From a virus (taxonomy: Duplodnaviria > Caudoviricetes), in IMG/VR virus record IMGVR_UViG_3300004255_000002, positions 26,530 to 90,529 of that record: a stretch of 64,000 bases of DNA. One strand, 5' to 3'. A program made the translations under genes and the position numbers. Position 1 is the first letter of the stretch. Each line of letters starts with the position of its first letter. Positions 60,370 through 64,000 of this stretch are shown here, piece by piece. A model generated the notes under the pieces. That model was not told where the DNA came from and searched no databases. It saw nothing but the letters and a program-made list of their open reading frames with translations.

Positions 60370-60626
60370 ACGCAATTCAACTAGCAATTTTACTTCACCA
60401 TTATTGGAGCCCAGAGAAGTACAAATCCAATACTGGTAACGCTGAGTACAGTCAGGCCGAAAAAGAAGGCCTAAACTATCTCTACAGCAATGGCCTACTA
60501 GAGAAAGAGGCAGAGGCCAGTGCTAAGTACTCTATCTCTGAAAAGGGTCAAGTGCATATCGTGGCACTACTAGACTTGCCGTTACCTGTATTGTCATGGA
60601 CATCTCCAATCAAGGCGAAGGTGTAA
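60366..60626 (+). CDS. Hypothetical protein (possible winged helix)
   Basis: L-x-x-x-GL-x-E...Y-x-ISEKG pattern. Confidence 0.55.
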   Translation: MNAIQLAILLHHYWSPEKYKSNTGNAEYSQAEKEGLNYLYSNGLLEKEAEASAKYSISEKGQVHIVALLDLPLPVLSWTSPIKAKV

Positions 60627-60628
60627 CC

Positions 60629-60862
60629 ATGGACCAAGTAATTAAAGTCGGTGATGTAGTTGAGCGCAAGGACGGTAGTCTTTTACGTAGTGGTGCGCAG
60701 ACCTATTTCAATGTAGTATGCGTATCCGTTGACCCATTCACCTTAGTCTCTGGTGGGGCTGATATGATGTGGACGACTACGGTTAAGCCAGAGCAGTTCA
60801 AGGTCGTGGCAAAGTGTCCTGTAGATATTCTTGAACAATGTATGAAAAGACTTGAAGAATAA
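60629..60862 (+). CDS. Hypothetical protein
   Basis: AAGG RBS before ATG 60629. Confidence 0.6.
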   Translation: MDQVIKVGDVVERKDGSLLRSGAQTYFNVVCVSVDPFTLVSGGADMMWTTTVKPEQFKVVAKCPVDILEQCMKRLEE

Positions 60863-60864
60863 GC

Positions 60865-60892
60865 TTGACCAATTGTTTGAATGTGTTATGAT
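60865..60892 (+). promoter_or_regulatory. Phage promoter heading the RNA island
   Basis: TTGACC-16 bp-TATGAT with extended TG. Confidence 0.75.
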
Positions 60893-60898
60893 GTATCT

Positions 60899-61336
60899 AC
60901 GTTGCAAGATTAAGGTAGCGAAGAACACAAGAATTGATGGGTGGGTTGAGTCTCTCCCTTAACTGGTGACCGAATAATTCGGGGTACTAACGAGCTTTTA
61001 GCGGGGCTTTCGTGGCGGTAGAGCATACGATTAGGTTAGGAAGAAATACATGGTGCAACAGTGAGACTCAGGATAAGGTTCATTTGGGTACCTTATCCCC
61101 AGTGTTGGCGGGTAATGGGAAGTACAACCATTGGTCGAAAGTGAAATCCCAGCACTGGGGATAGGGTAAGCAGAATCCTTGCAAGGTAGTTAGTAGCCTA
61201 GGGCATCGTAAGTGAAGGTGGAAACCCTGATACGCGATATCCCTAAGTGGCTAACCAGTAGTAAGATGGAGGTATATAGAGGCACCTTACTTCGTAAGGA
61301 AGGTCGATACCAGAATATTACTGATTAGGTATTTAT
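60899..61336 (+). ncRNA. Candidate large structured ncRNA (about 440 nt), family unassigned
   Basis: No ORF of 60 aa or more. 18-bp helix 61091-61108/61149-61166 with G-U pairs, 8-bp long-range helix 60947-60954/61063-61070, further stems. Confidence 0.6.
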
Positions 61337-61412
61337 AGGCGAGTAGTTCAACTGGTAGAACAGTACCCTTTGACGGTATATGTTGGAGGTTCAAGTCCTT
61401 CCTCGCTTGCCA
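61337..61412 (+). tRNA. tRNA-Gln (anticodon TTG)
   Basis: Full cloverleaf: AGGCGAG/CTCGCTT acceptor, GTACC-CT TTG AC-GGTAT, GGAGG-TTCAAGT-CCTTC, G73, encoded CCA. Confidence 0.93.
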
Positions 61413-61425
61413 GAATAGATATAAA

Positions 61426-61501
61426 GGCGAAGTAGCTCAGTTGGCAGAGCAGAGGGTTCATATCCCTAGGGTCGATGGTTCAACTCCATCCTTCGCAACC
61501 A
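61426..61501 (+). tRNA. tRNA-Met (CAT), initiator-like
   Basis: Cloverleaf with unpaired 1:72 (G/A), three G-C pairs in the anticodon stem (GGG/CCC), A73, CCA. Confidence 0.88.
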
Positions 61502-61506
61502 GTTAT

Positions 61507-61634
61507 GCAGTGCGTTACAGGTCTGCCCGTCCACCAGCCCCAATTGCAAAAGGCAGGTTAAGGGAATACAGATAGGGTAGGAAGTGGGAGTCGCGCTCCA
61601 CTTAGGGAGGTTCGAGCCCTCTCGCATTGCGCCA
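61507..61634 (+). ncRNA. Enlarged tRNA-like RNA A (128 nt)
   Basis: 8-bp acceptor GCAGTGCG/CGCATTGC, T-arm GGAGG-TTCGAGC-CCTCT, long variable-type arm, G-CCA end, no canonical D or anticodon arm. Confidence 0.75.
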
Positions 61635-61642
61635 GTTTTAAT

Positions 61643-61788
61643 GGGTAGTAGAAGCACGAATGAAAGCTAAATGGCCTTATAGGTAGTGCACGGTCTTTAA
61701 GATAGATAGGTGAGTAATTAGGGTGGATGCTTGAGTAGAGAGATAAGCTCCTCTATGACGTGGGTTCGACTCCCATTACTACCTGCCA
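61643..61788 (+). ncRNA. Enlarged tRNA-like RNA B (146 nt)
   Basis: 8-bp acceptor GGGTAGTA/TACTACCT, T-arm GTGGG-TTCGACT-CCCAT, variable-type arm TAGAG/CTCTA, G-CCA end. Confidence 0.75.
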
Positions 61789-61796
61789 GAGTTATA

Positions 61797-61883
61797 GGAG
61801 GGTTCCGCTAGGTTGGCTGGCAAATCGGTTTGAACCCGATGGGAACCGAAAGGTTAGGGGTTCGACTCCTCAGCCCTCCGCCA
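61797..61883 (+). tRNA. tRNA-Ser (TGA), 8/4 acceptor/T-stem type
   Basis: GGAGGGTT/AGCCCTCC 8-bp acceptor, 4-bp T stem, ATCGG-TT TGA AC-CCGAT, variable arm AACC-GAAA-GGTT, G73, CCA. Confidence 0.9.
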
Positions 61884-61887
61884 GTTA

Positions 61888-61990
61888 TGTTGGGTAGTGT
61901 AAGCAGCACAGCATCGTGATAGTGGGCACCAAAATCTCTTGAGGTCACACAGCGGAGCAAGATAAGGGACGACACCTTAACCAACTACCA
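61888..61990 (+). ncRNA. Degenerate tRNA-like RNA C (about 103 nt)
   Basis: GTTGG/CCAAC acceptor core, TA linker, GTG/CAC D-like stem, TAAGG-7 nt-CCTTA T-like arm, A-CCA end. Confidence 0.5.
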
Positions 61991-61991
61991 G

Positions 61992-62152
61992 TAAAGTGCG
62001 GCGTGGAGAATCATAGACACGCAAAAGCTAGAAATATGCTGAGGGTCTGTCCTTGGGGAAGAAAAGAGAATCCCGCTTCTAGGCTCGTGCGGGAGGAGGA
62101 CTTAGTTGCCAGTCCTAGAGCAACGAGTGGGAGTAATGACCCACCACTTAAA
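61992..62152 (+). ncRNA. tRNA-shaped RNA D with a large central insertion (about 160 nt)
   Basis: TAAAGTG/CACTTAA acceptor-like stem, D-like arm GCGTG/CACGC, T-like arm GTGGG-AGTAATGA-CCCAC, no encoded CCA. Confidence 0.45.
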
Positions 62153-62155
62153 GAA

Positions 62156-62485
62156 CGGAGAAGCCTGTAGGTACAGGTATGGCATCCTTATGGGGTGGCA
62201 TGGTAGCGCGAAACTAGACTAGGTTATGCAGGGGTACTTTTCAGACGGGGTACAAATGCAGGGCAGTGGAGCTAGACCTTCGTAGCCCAAGGTAGAAGAC
62301 CGAACTACCCTCTAGCTACACCAAAGCAGTAGACGTAGCCATGCCTGAATCCCTATACGGTCAAGACACGGTGCGATTGTCCGATGGAAACAAAATGCCG
62401 CAAGGCCAGCGACCTAACTAAGTCGTTAAGTGTAGGGCTACCAGAACAGTCACAAAGTCGGCGACAGGGTGCAAAGCCCTGACCA
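62156..62485 (+). ncRNA. Candidate structured ncRNA E (about 330 nt)
   Basis: Non-coding with multiple helices (GGCATGG/CCATGCC, GCTAGA/TCTAGC, GGTAG/CTACC, GCC-GCAA-GGC). Ends CAGGG-TGCAAAG-CCCTG-ACCA. Confidence 0.45.
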
Positions 62486-62493
62486 ATTAAATA

Positions 62494-62521
62494 TTGACAA
62501 ATTAATTCAATCTGTTAATAT
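62494..62521 (+). promoter_or_regulatory. Phage promoter (second RNA transcription unit)
   Basis: TTGACA-16 bp-TAATAT with extended TG. Confidence 0.75.
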
Positions 62522-62815
62522 ACAAGTAAGGGAGTGAAAGTTGGTACATTAGGTATTCGAGCATAGGAGAGACCAACAATGCTACTCCAACCAAATAGAG
62601 TGAAGGTGTCCAAGCAATTATGGGGCAGTGCCATAGGCCAACCACTACTAGGAGACAGACCTAGCACTCGACCAAATCCAAACGCGAAGTGCGCTAGACG
62701 CCGAAATCGGAAAGACTGGAACGTGCGCTGACCTGCGGATAATTGCCATACCCTACAGAACTAAAACTGAGTGGCTGTAAGATGGGTGACAGGGCGGAAA
62801 GCACGCTCAAACTAA

Positions 62816-62865
62816 CATCCCTGATGAGCTAGTGAAATCCTAGCGAAACGTGAGAGCGTAGGATG
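62816..62865 (+). ncRNA. Hammerhead ribozyme, type I
   Basis: CATCC / CTGATGA / GCTAG-TGAAATC-CTAGC / GAAA / CG-TGAGAG-CG / TA / GGATG. All core nucleotides are present. Predicted cut after GUA at 62860. Confidence 0.9.
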
Positions 62866-63142
62866 CGCCACACTAAAGGCATATAGGTGGAAACAAGTGG
62901 CTATACCACCTCAGTACTAGGCAGACGATATGACCCAGCCCGAAGGGAGAATCTAACAGGCCCTAGTAGCAAAAATCGTGAATAGCAAACGTGATACTTG
63001 GCACGTAGTCCAAGTACAGGAGAAGACCTGATAGGGACATAAACCCTTACGAGAACGAGCCTAGCGAACTGGCGTGATAGGCAAGAAACTTCAATTCAGA
63101 GCGCAGGAGGCTAAAGCCGACTCTCAGAGCTTGAGAGACCAC

Positions 63143-63217
63143 AGCCCTATAGCTCAGAGGTAGAGCAGAGGACTCATAATCCTTTGGTCACTGGTTCGAG
63201 ACCAGTTGGGGCTACCA
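63143..63217 (+). tRNA. tRNA with CAT anticodon, most likely tRNA-Ile2 (lysidine, reads AUA)
   Basis: Cloverleaf closely resembling E. coli ileX (C4-G69, C5-G68, CTCATAA loop, TGGTC variable loop), A73, CCA. Confidence 0.85.
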
Positions 63218-63238
63218 TAAAACTACACGGAGGTAGAT

Positions 63239-63418
63239 ATGGCAGTAGAAGTACCGAAAGACTTTACACCATGGATGACATTCACCGAGGCACTAGAACA
63301 GTACCTAGACCAGCGAGAAATCATCCAATCTTGTCACGTAAGCCACGGCCCTAAGTATGATACCGCCGTAGAGCATGCTCAGAATGCCGCAATCCATATG
63401 GAGTACTTCACATCATGA
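63239..63418 (+). CDS. Small hypothetical protein (59 aa)
   Basis: GGAGG RBS, ATGA overlap with the next gene. Not in the ORF track. Confidence 0.6.
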   Translation: MAVEVPKDFTPWMTFTEALEQYLDQREIIQSCHVSHGPKYDTAVEHAQNAAIHMEYFTS

Positions 63419-63729
63419 AGTTCCACCTCCAACGCAAACACATCCAAAATTGTATTACCTTAGACATCTCAGAACAGGTCGCTAAAGCCGATAGCGTTGC
63501 TCTAGCGTCCAAGATAACCATGGTCACCGTGGATGCAGGTGAATACCACGAGCCGTGTATGTCTCTCAGTATGGACGAGGCACAGCAACTCATGGACGAG
63601 TTATGGCTAGTAGGCTTACGTCCAAGCGAAGGCACAGGAAGCGCGGGTGCACTGGCGGCAACCCAGAAGCATTTAGATGATATGCGCAAGATAGCCTTTG
63701 ACCAGTTAGCCATCCAATATAAAACATAA
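63415..63729 (+). CDS. Conserved phage hypothetical protein
   Basis: AQQLMDELW-x-x-GLRPSEG-x-GSAG-x-L-x-A-x-x-x-HL-x-DMRKI block. Confidence 0.7.
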   Translation: MKFHLQRKHIQNCITLDISEQVAKADSVALASKITMVTVDAGEYHEPCMSLSMDEAQQLMDELWLVGLRPSEGTGSAGALAATQKHLDDMRKIAFDQLAIQYKT

Positions 63730-63732
63730 TCC

Positions 63733-63760
63733 TTGACTAATTAATTCAATATGATATTAT
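63733..63760 (+). promoter_or_regulatory. Phage promoter
   Basis: TTGACT-16 bp-TATTAT. Confidence 0.8.
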
Positions 63761-63765
63761 GACGT

Positions 63766-64000
63766 ATGGGATTTAATTACTTAACACATAGACTAAACCA
63801 CGACACCACTTGGATGATGAAGACAGGTCAAATCGTCAAAATCACTGATATGGGTTGTGGTCATCTTCAAAACAGTATCGCTATGCTGGAGAGAGCAAAG
63901 CAGGAATACACCAAAGCCTATGATGGGCTCATGGCAGAATGGATACGCCGTCAAAACAGCGGCAATCCATGCCCAGAGAATCCTAAGTTAGTACATCTAA
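63766..64000 (+). CDS. Hypothetical protein, 3' truncated by window
   Basis: Open frame W-x-x-x-x-G...I-x-DM-x-x-x-HL-x-N-x-I-x-ML-x-R. Alternative start at 63814. Confidence 0.55.
   Translation, partial: MGFNYLTHRLNHDTTWMMKTGQIVKITDMGCGHLQNSIAMLERAKQEYTKAYDGLMAEWIRRQNSGNPCPENPKLVHL

What the first reader, a model, noticed from the sequence alone, without database searches (positions are those of the whole stretch)
61507..61788. Two tandem oversized tRNA-like RNAs with 8/5 acceptor branch, long extra arm and G-CCA end
Seen: RNA A (128 nt) and RNA B (146 nt) each have an 8-bp acceptor stem, a 5-bp T stem with a TTCGA loop, a long hairpin just before the T arm and a G-CCA end. The D and anticodon arms are replaced by a larger domain. 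In A, TCTGCCC/GGGTAGG closes a long irregular arm topped by CCAATTGCAAAA. In B, AAGCA/TGCTT closes about 75 nt. Known: an 8/5 branch with long variable arm and G73 is the tRNA-Sec layout, and bacterial SerRS recognises the long variable arm without reading the anticodon. Inference: these may be serylated but non-decoding RNAs, for example decoys for anticodon nucleases or toxin sensors, or aminoacyl carriers for a non-ribosomal reaction. I do not recognise this architecture as a described family.
Basis: partly seen in the sequence, partly recalled or inferred. Interest (0 to 1): 0.85.

Follow-up and report, generated by a model that had tools for sequence, protein, structure and literature searches.

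The report
Two oversized non-decoding tRNA look-alikes
An uncultured freshwater-sediment phage carries, inside its tRNA gene row, two genes for 128- and 146-base RNAs that keep the upper half of a serine/selenocysteine-type tRNA but show no credible anticodon; they resemble phage T4's still unexplained 'species 1' RNA, and their function is untested.

Summary
At 61507-61634 (A) and 61643-61788 (B) each RNA has:
- an 8-bp acceptor stem
- a 5-bp T stem with a canonical UUCGA loop
- a 7-9 bp hairpin just before the T arm
- G73-CCA

A descriptor for these features hits only true tRNAs, A and B in the 90.5-kb genome. Shuffled genomes give 0.02 hits.

A and B sit between tRNA-Met and tRNA-Ser with the same CCA-G-(A/U-rich) spacing as the real tRNAs. 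They lie downstream of a phage promoter, in a 2.3-kb stretch without ORFs. A metatranscriptome contig covers them colinearly with the DNA.

ARAGORN and Rfam call neither one, even with introns allowed. 'Hidden tRNAs' obtained by deleting segments are no more frequent than in shuffled controls.

No homologue was found in named phages, IMG/VR, JGI metagenomes, GTDB genomes or the protein-cluster collection. The phage is an orphan, so covariation could not be tested.

Best reading: these are non-decoding RNAs derived from class II tRNAs and processed like tRNAs, built like T4 RNA C. A decoy or charged-carrier role is inference only.

This scan has noted similar oversized tRNA look-alikes about 110 times in other phages, but never this sequence.

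The parts
60865..60892 (+). Phage promoter (TTGACC, 16-nt spacer, TG-TATGAT) heading the RNA unit that contains A and B
   Evidence: matches 10 of 12 consensus positions with an extended -10. Near-identical copies lie at 62494 and 63733. The scan found no terminator-like site on the + strand anywhere in 60500-64000.
61426..61501 (+). tRNA-Met(CAU), the upstream neighbour; a 5-nt spacer GUUAU separates it from A
   Evidence: ARAGORN; Rfam tRNA 56.2 bits.
61507..61634 (+). RNA A, 128 nt: a tRNA look-alike with no detectable anticodon arm
   Evidence: The tRNA-like fold is the minimum-free-energy fold. Acceptor pair probability is 1.0 for seven pairs and 0.38 for the eighth.
61507..61514 (+). A: 5' strand of the acceptor stem (GCAGUGCG). 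It pairs with 61623-61630, followed by G73 at 61631 and CCA at 61632-34.
61515..61521 (+). A: unpaired linker UUACAGG in place of a D arm. It ends in GG, which could cap the T loop (inference).
61522..61581 (+). A: long irregular arm closed by UCUGCCC/GGGUAGG, with apex UUGC-AAAAG-GCAG. It replaces the anticodon arm.
   Evidence: minimum-free-energy fold. No covariation data exist.
61582..61603 (+). A: extra-arm hairpin, about 9 bp with one bulged G
61606..61622 (+). A: T arm GGAGG-UUCGAGC-CCUCU (G49.U65, G53:C61)
61643..61788 (+). RNA B, 146 nt: a tRNA look-alike. An alternative 108-nt form would start at 61681.
   Evidence: The 8-nt A/U-rich spacer before 61643 matches the other spacers in the array.
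61643..61650 (+). B: 5' strand of the acceptor stem (GGGUAGUA). It pairs with 61777-61784, followed by G73 at 61785 and CCA at 61786-88.
61651..61735 (+). B: poorly defined 85-nt middle domain. It includes a possible AAGCA/UGCUU closure (61652-56/61728-32), a second copy of the 5' strand (61681-88), and a weak anticodon-like arm UUAGG-GUGGAUG-CUUGA (61718-34).
   Evidence: The anticodon-like arm is not above the shuffled-control rate.
61736..61755 (+). B: extra-arm hairpin UAGAGAG-AUAAG-CUCCUCUA (7 bp with one bulged C)
61760..61776 (+). B: T arm GUGGG-UUCGACU-CCCAU (G49.U65). It shares GGGUUCGACUCC with the neighbouring tRNA-Ser.
61797..61883 (+). tRNA-Ser(UGA), the downstream neighbour. It is a class II tRNA that can be drawn 8/4, or 7/5 with an A49.A65 mismatch, and has G73-CCA.
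   Evidence: ARAGORN. It falls below the Rfam tRNA threshold and scores 25.2 bits on the tRNA-Sec model. 8/4 tRNA-Ser is known from phages (PMC5389517).

Best explanation
A and B are genes for tRNA-derived RNAs that cannot decode.

Proposed pathway:
1. They are transcribed with tRNA-Gln, tRNA-Met and tRNA-Ser from the phage promoter at 60865.
2. The host tRNA-processing machinery probably cuts them out. RNase P would act at the 5' end, guided by the acceptor/T helix and the GCCA. An endonuclease would cut in the 'G + A/U-rich' spacer. Exonucleases would then trim back to the encoded CCA.
3. The products are stable 128- and 146-nt RNAs.

Each product keeps only the upper half of a class II (Ser/Sec-type) tRNA: a 13-bp acceptor/T helix, a canonical T loop, a long extra arm and G73-CCA. 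A long arm (A) or a loosely folded 85-nt domain (B) stands where the D and anticodon arms should be, so no codon can be read.

They would therefore act through proteins that read only the upper half of a tRNA. The role I think most likely is a decoy or sponge for enzymes that attack or modify the acceptor end of Ser-type tRNAs. A possible alternative is a charged but non-ribosomal carrier.

Shown here: the sequence features, that they are not chance, the array context, presence in an RNA library, and the absence of a detectable anticodon arm or intron.

Inferred: processing, stability, charging, and the decoy function.
For: - The features are present, and chance gives 0.02 such elements per genome.
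- In the descriptor scan all five correctly placed T-arm+CCA modules of the genome lie in this one island on the + strand.
- Spacing is the same for tRNAs and look-alikes: CCA, then G, then 5-13 A/U-rich nt.
- The promoter is at 60865 and no ORF of 60 aa or more lies on the + strand in 60863-63238.
- The stretch is in a metatranscriptome as one 5.7-kb contig colinear with the DNA. That contig has word depth 60, against 5.6-21 for the three contigs upstream. The DNA run is flat at 13.
- ARAGORN and Rfam call neither RNA, with or without introns.
- T4 rnaC folds with the same layout and also gets a weak tRNA-Sec match.
- B's T arm shares 12 nt with the neighbouring tRNA-Ser, which fits an origin from a class II tRNA.
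- Precedent that the upper half is enough for a toxin. The DUF1814 nucleotidyltransferase toxin MenT3 belongs to the family that includes the abortive-infection toxin AbiEii (PMC7450476). It selects tRNA-Ser through the long variable loop and modifies the CCA end (PMC11162799, PMC11541572).
Against: - No homologue was found anywhere, so no covariation or conservation supports any stem.
- B's fold is no more stable than shuffled sequence (z 0.02) and A's only weakly so (z -1.4).
- In the longer precursor context the folding program does not recover the acceptor stems. It also misses the real tRNA-Met there, so this counts for little.
- B has two candidate 5' strands.
- None of the ~50 phage proteins screened against Pfam is a tRNA-related enzyme.
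- The RNA evidence is contigs only, so mature ends and abundance are unknown.
Confidence: 0.6

Rival explanations
1. Decaying genes. A and B are class II tRNA genes that took up insertions or duplications in their lower half. They are still transcribed and perhaps processed, but do nothing.
For: - There are no relatives at all, so no sign of purifying selection.
- Folding z-scores are weak, especially for B.
- B carries a second copy of its 5' strand, and the next unit (C) starts with nearly the same 14 nt. This looks like duplication scars.
- The units downstream (C, D) are progressively less tRNA-like.
Against: - In both RNAs all 13 pairs of the acceptor/T helix, the canonical T loop, the extra-arm hairpin, G73-CCA and the spacer pattern are intact, while only the lower half differs. 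Random decay should hit the stems as well.
- Elsewhere in this 90-kb genome the genes are tightly packed.
- T4 keeps an RNA of the same design.
Confidence: 0.2
2. tRNA scaffold. The tRNA-like ends serve only for processing and stability, and the inserted domains are the active parts (protein-binding aptamer, small regulatory RNA or similar). A and B would belong to one series with the larger CCA-ended units that follow.
For: At least ten units in the island end in NCCA followed by G. This includes a 332-nt unit (62112-62443) closed by a 7-bp terminal stem. Insert sizes grow along the array.
Against: - The inserts have no complementarity to phage mRNAs beyond what shuffled inserts give.
- No known RNA motif is found in them.
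- B's insert is not stably folded.
- Keeping the long extra arm and G73 is not needed for a mere scaffold.
Confidence: 0.1
3. Working tRNAs. B would be a tRNA-Ser(GGA) with an enlarged D region. Alternatively A and/or B carry an intervening sequence that is removed to give a normal tRNA.
For: After deleting 45-55 nt from B's 5' half, ARAGORN calls tRNA-Ser(GGA) using the arm UUAGG-GUGGAUG-CUUGA. Other deletions give tRNA-Ile(UAU).
Against: - The same deletion scan on B with a shuffled interior gives calls in 29 of 40 shuffles (median about 20; the real sequence gives 117, within the range). A gives none.
- The candidate anticodon loop has G32 and U37, which are not canonical.
- ARAGORN with introns allowed makes no call at default stringency.
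- The inserts are far shorter than group I introns, the kind known in bacterial tRNA genes.
- No RNA ligase is among the proteins screened.
- The RNA contig is colinear with no joint, though contigs can miss rare forms.
Confidence: 0.05

Closest known systems
Bacteriophage T4 species 1 RNA (rnaC, 139 nt; NC_000866 70908-71046), with its neighbour species 2 RNA (rnaD)
   Same: - It lies in the phage tRNA gene cluster.
- It folds as terminal stem, long arm, about 10-bp hairpin, then a 5-bp T arm with UUCGA loop. This is the same order of parts as A.
- Neither tRNA detectors nor any Rfam family call it; it gets only a weak tRNA-Sec match.
- Its role is unknown (PMC3014915).
   Different: - There is no detectable sequence similarity.
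- T4's terminal stem is imperfect and its CCA is not encoded.
- A and B have a perfect 8-bp stem, a 13-bp helix and an encoded G73-CCA.
- T4 rnaC folds far more stably than chance (z -4.6); A and B do not.
Bacterial tRNA-Sec (Rfam RF01852)
   Same: 8/5 acceptor/T helix (13 bp), long extra arm, G73, and a G49.U65 pair. In E. coli tRNA-Sec that pair is one of three read by SelB and rejected by EF-Tu (PMC9976931).
   Different: - There is no 6-bp D stem, no anticodon arm and no UCA anticodon.
- There is no Rfam match at E up to 10.
- G49.U65 alone is not diagnostic: it also occurs in tRNA-Gly species that bind EF-Tu tightly (PMC7826273).
allo-tRNAs and 8/4 tRNA-Ser of phages (Mukai et al., PMC5389517)
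   Same: Lengthened acceptor stem, long extra arm, G73, occurrence in phage tRNA clusters and in polycistrons of irregular tRNAs, some thought not to be used in translation. The neighbouring tRNA-Ser(UGA) here can be drawn 8/4.
   Different: allo-tRNAs keep 12 bp (8/4 or 9/3), a full cloverleaf of about 90 nt, and an anticodon. A and B have 13 bp, are 128 and 146 nt long, and have no credible anticodon arm.
tRNA-like domain of tmRNA
   Same: Acceptor stem, T arm, a D loop without a stem, and a long helix where the anticodon arm would be. It is charged without an anticodon.
   Different: A and B have no tag reading frame and no pseudoknots, and their discriminator is G. They have an extra arm, which tmRNA lacks. 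ARAGORN makes no tmRNA call, and Rfam tmRNA gives 8-12 bits on the T arm only.

Membership tests
Canonical tRNA (Rfam RF00005 / ARAGORN) | Cloverleaf with D arm and a 7-nt anticodon loop; score at or above the 29-bit gathering threshold | tested here: not met
   ARAGORN makes no call, with or without introns. Rfam gives no tRNA match at E up to 10.
Canonical tRNA (Rfam RF00005 / ARAGORN) | Acceptor stem, T arm with G53:C61 and the U54-U55-C56-R57-A58 loop, NCCA end | tested here: met
Bacterial tRNA-Sec (RF01852) | 13-bp (8/5) acceptor/T helix, long extra arm, G73 | tested here: met
   A can also be drawn 7/6.
Bacterial tRNA-Sec (RF01852) | 6-bp D stem with 4-nt loop, 6-bp anticodon stem, UCA anticodon; score at or above 47 bits | tested here: not met
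   No such arms appear in the folds. No Rfam match.
allo-tRNA / 8/4 tRNA-Ser (Mukai 2017) | 12-bp branch split 8/4 or 9/3, with a complete cloverleaf and anticodon | tested here: not met
   The branch is 13 bp and there is no anticodon arm. Definition taken from PMC5389517.
T4 species 1 RNA-like phage RNAs (no curated family) | Located in a phage tRNA cluster; layout of terminal stem, long arm, hairpin, T arm | tested here: met
   Met fully for A. For B, all parts are met except a well-defined long arm.
T4 species 1 RNA-like phage RNAs (no curated family) | Sequence or covariance homology to T4 rnaC | tested here: not met
   blastn of A and B against 50,697 phage records, which include T4, finds only T-arm-sized matches.
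T4 species 1 RNA-like phage RNAs (no curated family) | A stable, discrete RNA species in infected cells | not testable with these tools
   Only assembled RNA contigs were available, and contigs cannot show RNA ends.
tmRNA (RF00023) | tRNA-like domain plus a tag reading frame and pseudoknots | tested here: not met
   ARAGORN makes no tmRNA call. Rfam gives 8.4-12.3 bits against a 47-bit threshold, on the T arm only.
Intron-containing bacterial tRNA | Removing one segment restores a cloverleaf more often than chance; the intron is of group I size and fold | tested here: not met
   A gives 0 of 1470 deletion variants called. B's calls fall within the shuffled-control range. The inserts are 50-70 nt, and Rfam finds no intron family.

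The most novel reading that the evidence does not exclude
A and B, perhaps together with the following CCA-ended units, are serylatable tRNA upper halves with no anticodon. The phage would make them to soak up host defence enzymes that recognise Ser-type tRNAs by the long extra arm and attack the CCA end (AbiEii/MenT-type nucleotidyltransferases or similar). Alternatively they would carry serine for a non-ribosomal reaction. This would be a phage counter-defence that works by tRNA mimicry rather than by replacing a damaged tRNA.
Probability: 0.12. Interest if true: 0.85.

Novelty: new variant of a known kind. Interest (0 to 1): 0.45.

Why it matters
Phage tRNA clusters are usually read only as codon-usage helpers or as spare parts against anticodon nucleases. 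RNAs that keep just the acceptor/T/extra-arm half retain what RNase P, the CCA-adding enzyme, SerRS and acceptor-end toxins read, and lose what the ribosome needs.

If such RNAs are functional, they would help explain a 50-year-old puzzle, T4 RNA C and D. They would also point to a class of phage counter-defence or non-ribosomal aminoacyl carriers that current annotation tools miss.

This case adds a clean tandem example with a 13-bp Sec-like helix and an encoded CCA. As an orphan with no relatives, it cannot yet show selection.

Tried and rejected
**Homologue searches, all empty**
- blastn of the island, and of A and B alone, against 50,697 phage records found only tRNA or T-arm matches.
- Exact or degenerate patterns for A, B, tRNA-Ser and tRNA-Met found nothing in IMG/VR. 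The B pattern found nothing in GTDB genomes.
- Relatives of the flanking 104-aa gene (7 in IMG/VR, 25 in JGI metagenomes) and one relative of a 242-aa gene have no ARAGORN tRNA in the fetched loci (242-aa relative: Rfam whole-record check only). blastn finds no similarity to the island in any of them. An Rfam tRNA search of five whole records also found nothing.
- The upstream 88-aa gene and the DNA polymerase have no relatives by these tools.
- The other contigs that carry the 88-aa gene are 100% identical to the window, so they offer no variation to use.
- The genome search cannot draw relatives for a virus record.

**Hidden tRNA or intron**
- ARAGORN with introns allowed and exhaustive single deletions gave nothing above the shuffled-interior controls.

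**Antisense target**
- Complementarity of the inserts to phage transcripts is no better than for shuffled inserts.

**Paralogy**
- A, B, C, D and tRNA-Ser show no significant pairwise similarity beyond the T arm.

**Partner enzyme**
- Pfam on about 50 phage proteins found no synthetase, RNA ligase, CCA-adding enzyme, peptidyl-tRNA hydrolase or Fem-type transferase. Many of these proteins have no family at all.

**Other**
- RNA ends, levels and rare spliced forms could not be read because all four runs were served as contigs. Stretches without RNA contig cover are not evidence.
- The AATTGCA half-site in A's apical loop: lone half-sites are no more frequent than chance.
- G49.U65 as a sign that EF-Tu is rejected: dropped, because the same pair occurs in tRNAs that bind EF-Tu tightly.

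Full report
**Where it is.** The window is the last 64 kb of a 90.5-kb IMG/VR virus record rated 99% complete. The record comes from freshwater sediment. It is a tailed phage with a tape-measure protein, and its tail proteins are about 40% identical to those of YuA/M6-like Pseudomonas and Erythrobacter siphoviruses. Genes run on the + strand.

Between 60863 and 63238 the + strand has no ORF of 60 aa or more. In this stretch ARAGORN finds four tRNAs:
- tRNA-Gln at 61337-61412
- tRNA-Met at 61426-61501
- tRNA-Ser(UGA) at 61797-61883
- a second CAU tRNA at 63143-63217

Three near-identical extended -10 promoters lie at 60865, 62494 and 63733. The finding occupies the 295-nt gap between tRNA-Met and tRNA-Ser.

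RNA A (61507-61634) has these parts:
- an 8-bp acceptor stem (7 Watson-Crick pairs, 1 G.U)
- a 7-nt linker ending in GG
- a 60-nt irregular arm closed by UCUGCCC/GGGUAGG
- a hairpin of about 9 bp
- a T arm GGAGG-UUCGAGC-CCUCU
- G-CCA

This tRNA-like fold is the minimum-free-energy fold.

RNA B (61643-61788) has these parts:
- an 8-bp acceptor stem
- an 85-nt middle domain
- a 7-bp hairpin
- a T arm GUGGG-UUCGACU-CCCAU
- G-CCA

Both RNAs have the invariant T-arm features (G53:C61 and U54-U55-C56-R57-A58). Both start the T stem with G49.U65. In both, acceptor plus T stem add up to 13 bp, one more than in ordinary tRNAs.

I tested chance with a descriptor: 5-bp T stem, TTCRANN loop, 7-9 bp acceptor and NCCA, with total length 60-260 nt. 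On both strands of the whole genome it hits only tRNA-Gln, A, B and the second tRNA-Met. One hundred dinucleotide shuffles give 0.02 hits per genome.

The array has one punctuation throughout. Each unit ends in CCA, then G, then 5-13 A/U-rich nt, and then the next unit starts. This holds for the true tRNAs and for A and B alike. It also favours 61643 over the second possible 5' strand at 61681 as B's start.

**What A and B are not.**
- Rfam has nothing for either RNA at E up to 10, apart from a T-arm-sized tmRNA fragment.
- ARAGORN calls neither, also with introns of up to 300 nt allowed.
- I deleted every possible segment and re-ran ARAGORN. A never becomes a tRNA. B does, as Ser(GGA) or Ile(UAU).
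- The same scan on B with only its interior shuffled gives calls in 29 of 40 shuffles. The real count falls within that range.
- The Ser(GGA) loop has G32 and U37, which are not canonical.

So there is no evidence for a hidden anticodon arm or an intron. The inserts (50-70 nt) are far below group I intron size, a comparison made from general knowledge. No RNA ligase is among the roughly 50 proteins screened.

**Expression.** One metatranscriptome holds 90% of the island's sampled words. A single 5,721-nt RNA contig (57072-62792) runs through A and B with no joint and no difference from the DNA.

Contig depths in that RNA run are uneven:
- 5.6-21 for the three contigs upstream
- 60 for the contig holding A and B
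- 417 for 62968-63777

The DNA run is flat at about 13. This argues that the library contains real transcripts rather than carried-over DNA. Because only contigs were served, nothing can be said about mature ends or about rare spliced forms.

**Relatives.** None were found.
- blastn against named phages gives only tRNA or T-arm matches.
- Patterns for A, B, tRNA-Ser and tRNA-Met hit nothing in IMG/VR, and the B pattern nothing in GTDB genomes.
- Thirty-two relatives of the downstream 104-aa gene and one relative of a 242-aa gene carry no ARAGORN tRNA in the fetched loci (242-aa relative: Rfam whole-record check only) and no similarity to the island.
- The upstream 88-aa gene and the DNA polymerase have no relatives by these tools.
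- The other contigs of this phage are identical to the window.

The phage is therefore an orphan, and no stem can be tested by covariation. This is the main weakness of any functional claim. It is compounded by weak folding statistics: z is -1.4 for A and 0.02 for B.

**Comparison with known RNAs.**

The closest design is phage T4 species 1 RNA (rnaC). It is annotated in the T4 tRNA cluster. Its fold is terminal stem, long arm, 10-bp hairpin, then the T arm CCGGG-UUCGAAU-CCCGG. That is the same order of parts as in A. Rfam has no family for it. Its 3' 93 nt get a sub-threshold tRNA-Sec match of 17.5 bits. Its role is still unknown (PMC3014915).

Mukai et al. (PMC5389517) describe 8/4 tRNA-Ser in phage tRNA clusters and polycistrons of irregular tRNAs, some apparently not used in translation. 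The neighbouring tRNA-Ser(UGA) here can be drawn 8/4. It shares 12 nt of its T arm with B. This suggests that A and B derive from class II Ser-type tRNAs with lengthened acceptor stems.

The 8/5 helix, long extra arm and G73 match tRNA-Sec. The D stem, anticodon stem and UCA anticodon that define tRNA-Sec are absent.

**Mechanism.**

What remains in A and B is what RNase P, the CCA-adding enzyme, the T-loop modifiers and, through the extra arm, SerRS read. This rests on established knowledge of these enzymes and was not tested here. What is lost is what the ribosome needs.

There is a concrete precedent that the upper half suffices for a toxin. MenT3 belongs to the DUF1814 family that includes the abortive-infection toxin AbiEii (PMC7450476). 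It picks tRNA-Ser by its long variable loop and extends the CCA end (PMC11162799, PMC11541572).

I therefore rank the readings as follows:
- 0.6: non-decoding tRNA mimics processed like tRNAs, with a decoy role as the favoured but unproven function.
- 0.2: functionless decaying tRNA genes.
- 0.1: tRNA-ended scaffolds whose inserts are the active part.
- 0.05: working or intron-bearing tRNAs.

G49.U65 is shared with E. coli tRNA-Sec, where it helps reject EF-Tu (PMC9976931). The same pair occurs in tRNAs that bind EF-Tu tightly (PMC7826273), so I draw no conclusion from it.

**Verdict.** A and B are real, non-random, tandem tRNA look-alikes that cannot be shown to decode. They follow a design known from T4 but are never annotated.

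Here they have a Sec-like 13-bp helix, a long extra arm and an encoded G73-CCA. I class them as a new variant of a known but unexplained kind.

This scan has flagged comparable oversized tRNA-like RNAs about 110 times in at least 107 other genomes, but no look-alike of this sequence.

I rate interest as moderate (0.45). The case is clean, but it has no relatives, no end-mapped RNA and no tested function.

Noticed in passing
window 62816-62865: A complete hammerhead ribozyme core in the RNA unit upstream of the second CAU tRNA. Parts in order: stem I CAUCC/GGAUG, CUGAUGA, stem II GCUAG/CUAGC, GAAA, a short stem III, and a GUA cleavage triplet. Rfam scores it only 20.8 bits against a 48.5-bit threshold.
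   Followed up: partly
window 60893-62443: At least ten consecutive units end in NCCA followed by G and an A/U-rich spacer. The ends are at 61257, 61312, 61412, 61501, 61634, 61788, 61883, 61990, 62111 and 62443. The units after tRNA-Ser (about 98, 120 and 332 nt) are progressively less tRNA-like. The 332-nt unit (62112-62443) closes with AGUCCUA/UAGGGCU plus ACCA.
   Followed up: partly
whole genome, e.g. window 505, 2209, 11229, 59580: The 14-bp near-palindrome TGCA-RYY-AATTGCA occurs 22 times on the + strand and 9 times on the - strand of the 90.5-kb genome. AATTGCA occurs 26 times against 6.9 expected. This is probably an operator for a phage regulator. One lone half-site lies in the apical loop of RNA A (61542-61548), which is compatible with chance.
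   Followed up: partly
window 61797-61883: The tRNA-Ser(UGA) falls below the Rfam tRNA threshold and matches the tRNA-Sec model better (25.2 bits). It can be drawn as an 8/4 tRNA of the kind Mukai et al. reported in phages, or as 7/5 with an A49.A65 mismatch.
   Followed up: partly
window 62968-63777: In the metatranscriptome this contig (end of the second RNA unit, the CAU tRNA and two small ORFs) has word depth 417. The contig holding A and B has 60, and contigs further upstream have 5.6-21. The DNA run is flat at 13.
   Followed up: no
L010:1109-1247 (- strand; T4 rnaC): T4 species 1 RNA has an inner strand ACGGAACG that pairs perfectly with its 3' CGUUUCGU, giving a 93-nt 8/5 form. The annotated 5' end pairs imperfectly. 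RNA B here likewise has two candidate 5' strands.
   Followed up: no
L039:1211-1324 and L038:1501-1586: Klebsiella phage FBKp34 annotates a 114-nt 'tRNA-Asp' that is a cloverleaf with a 40-nt insert in the anticodon arm. Salmonella phage As2 has an unannotated 86-nt tRNA-Ser-like gene, and further unannotated gaps of 160-400 nt in its tRNA cluster.
   Followed up: partly
L037:5665-7089 and L036:13360-15576: Outside the window the phage encodes a head-associated (Mu F-like) protein fused to an ADP-ribosyltransferase domain. It also encodes a PPDK-like protein with ATP-grasp and swivel domains but no Pfam match to a PEP/pyruvate-binding domain, next to two dual-specificity-phosphatase-like proteins.
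   Followed up: no
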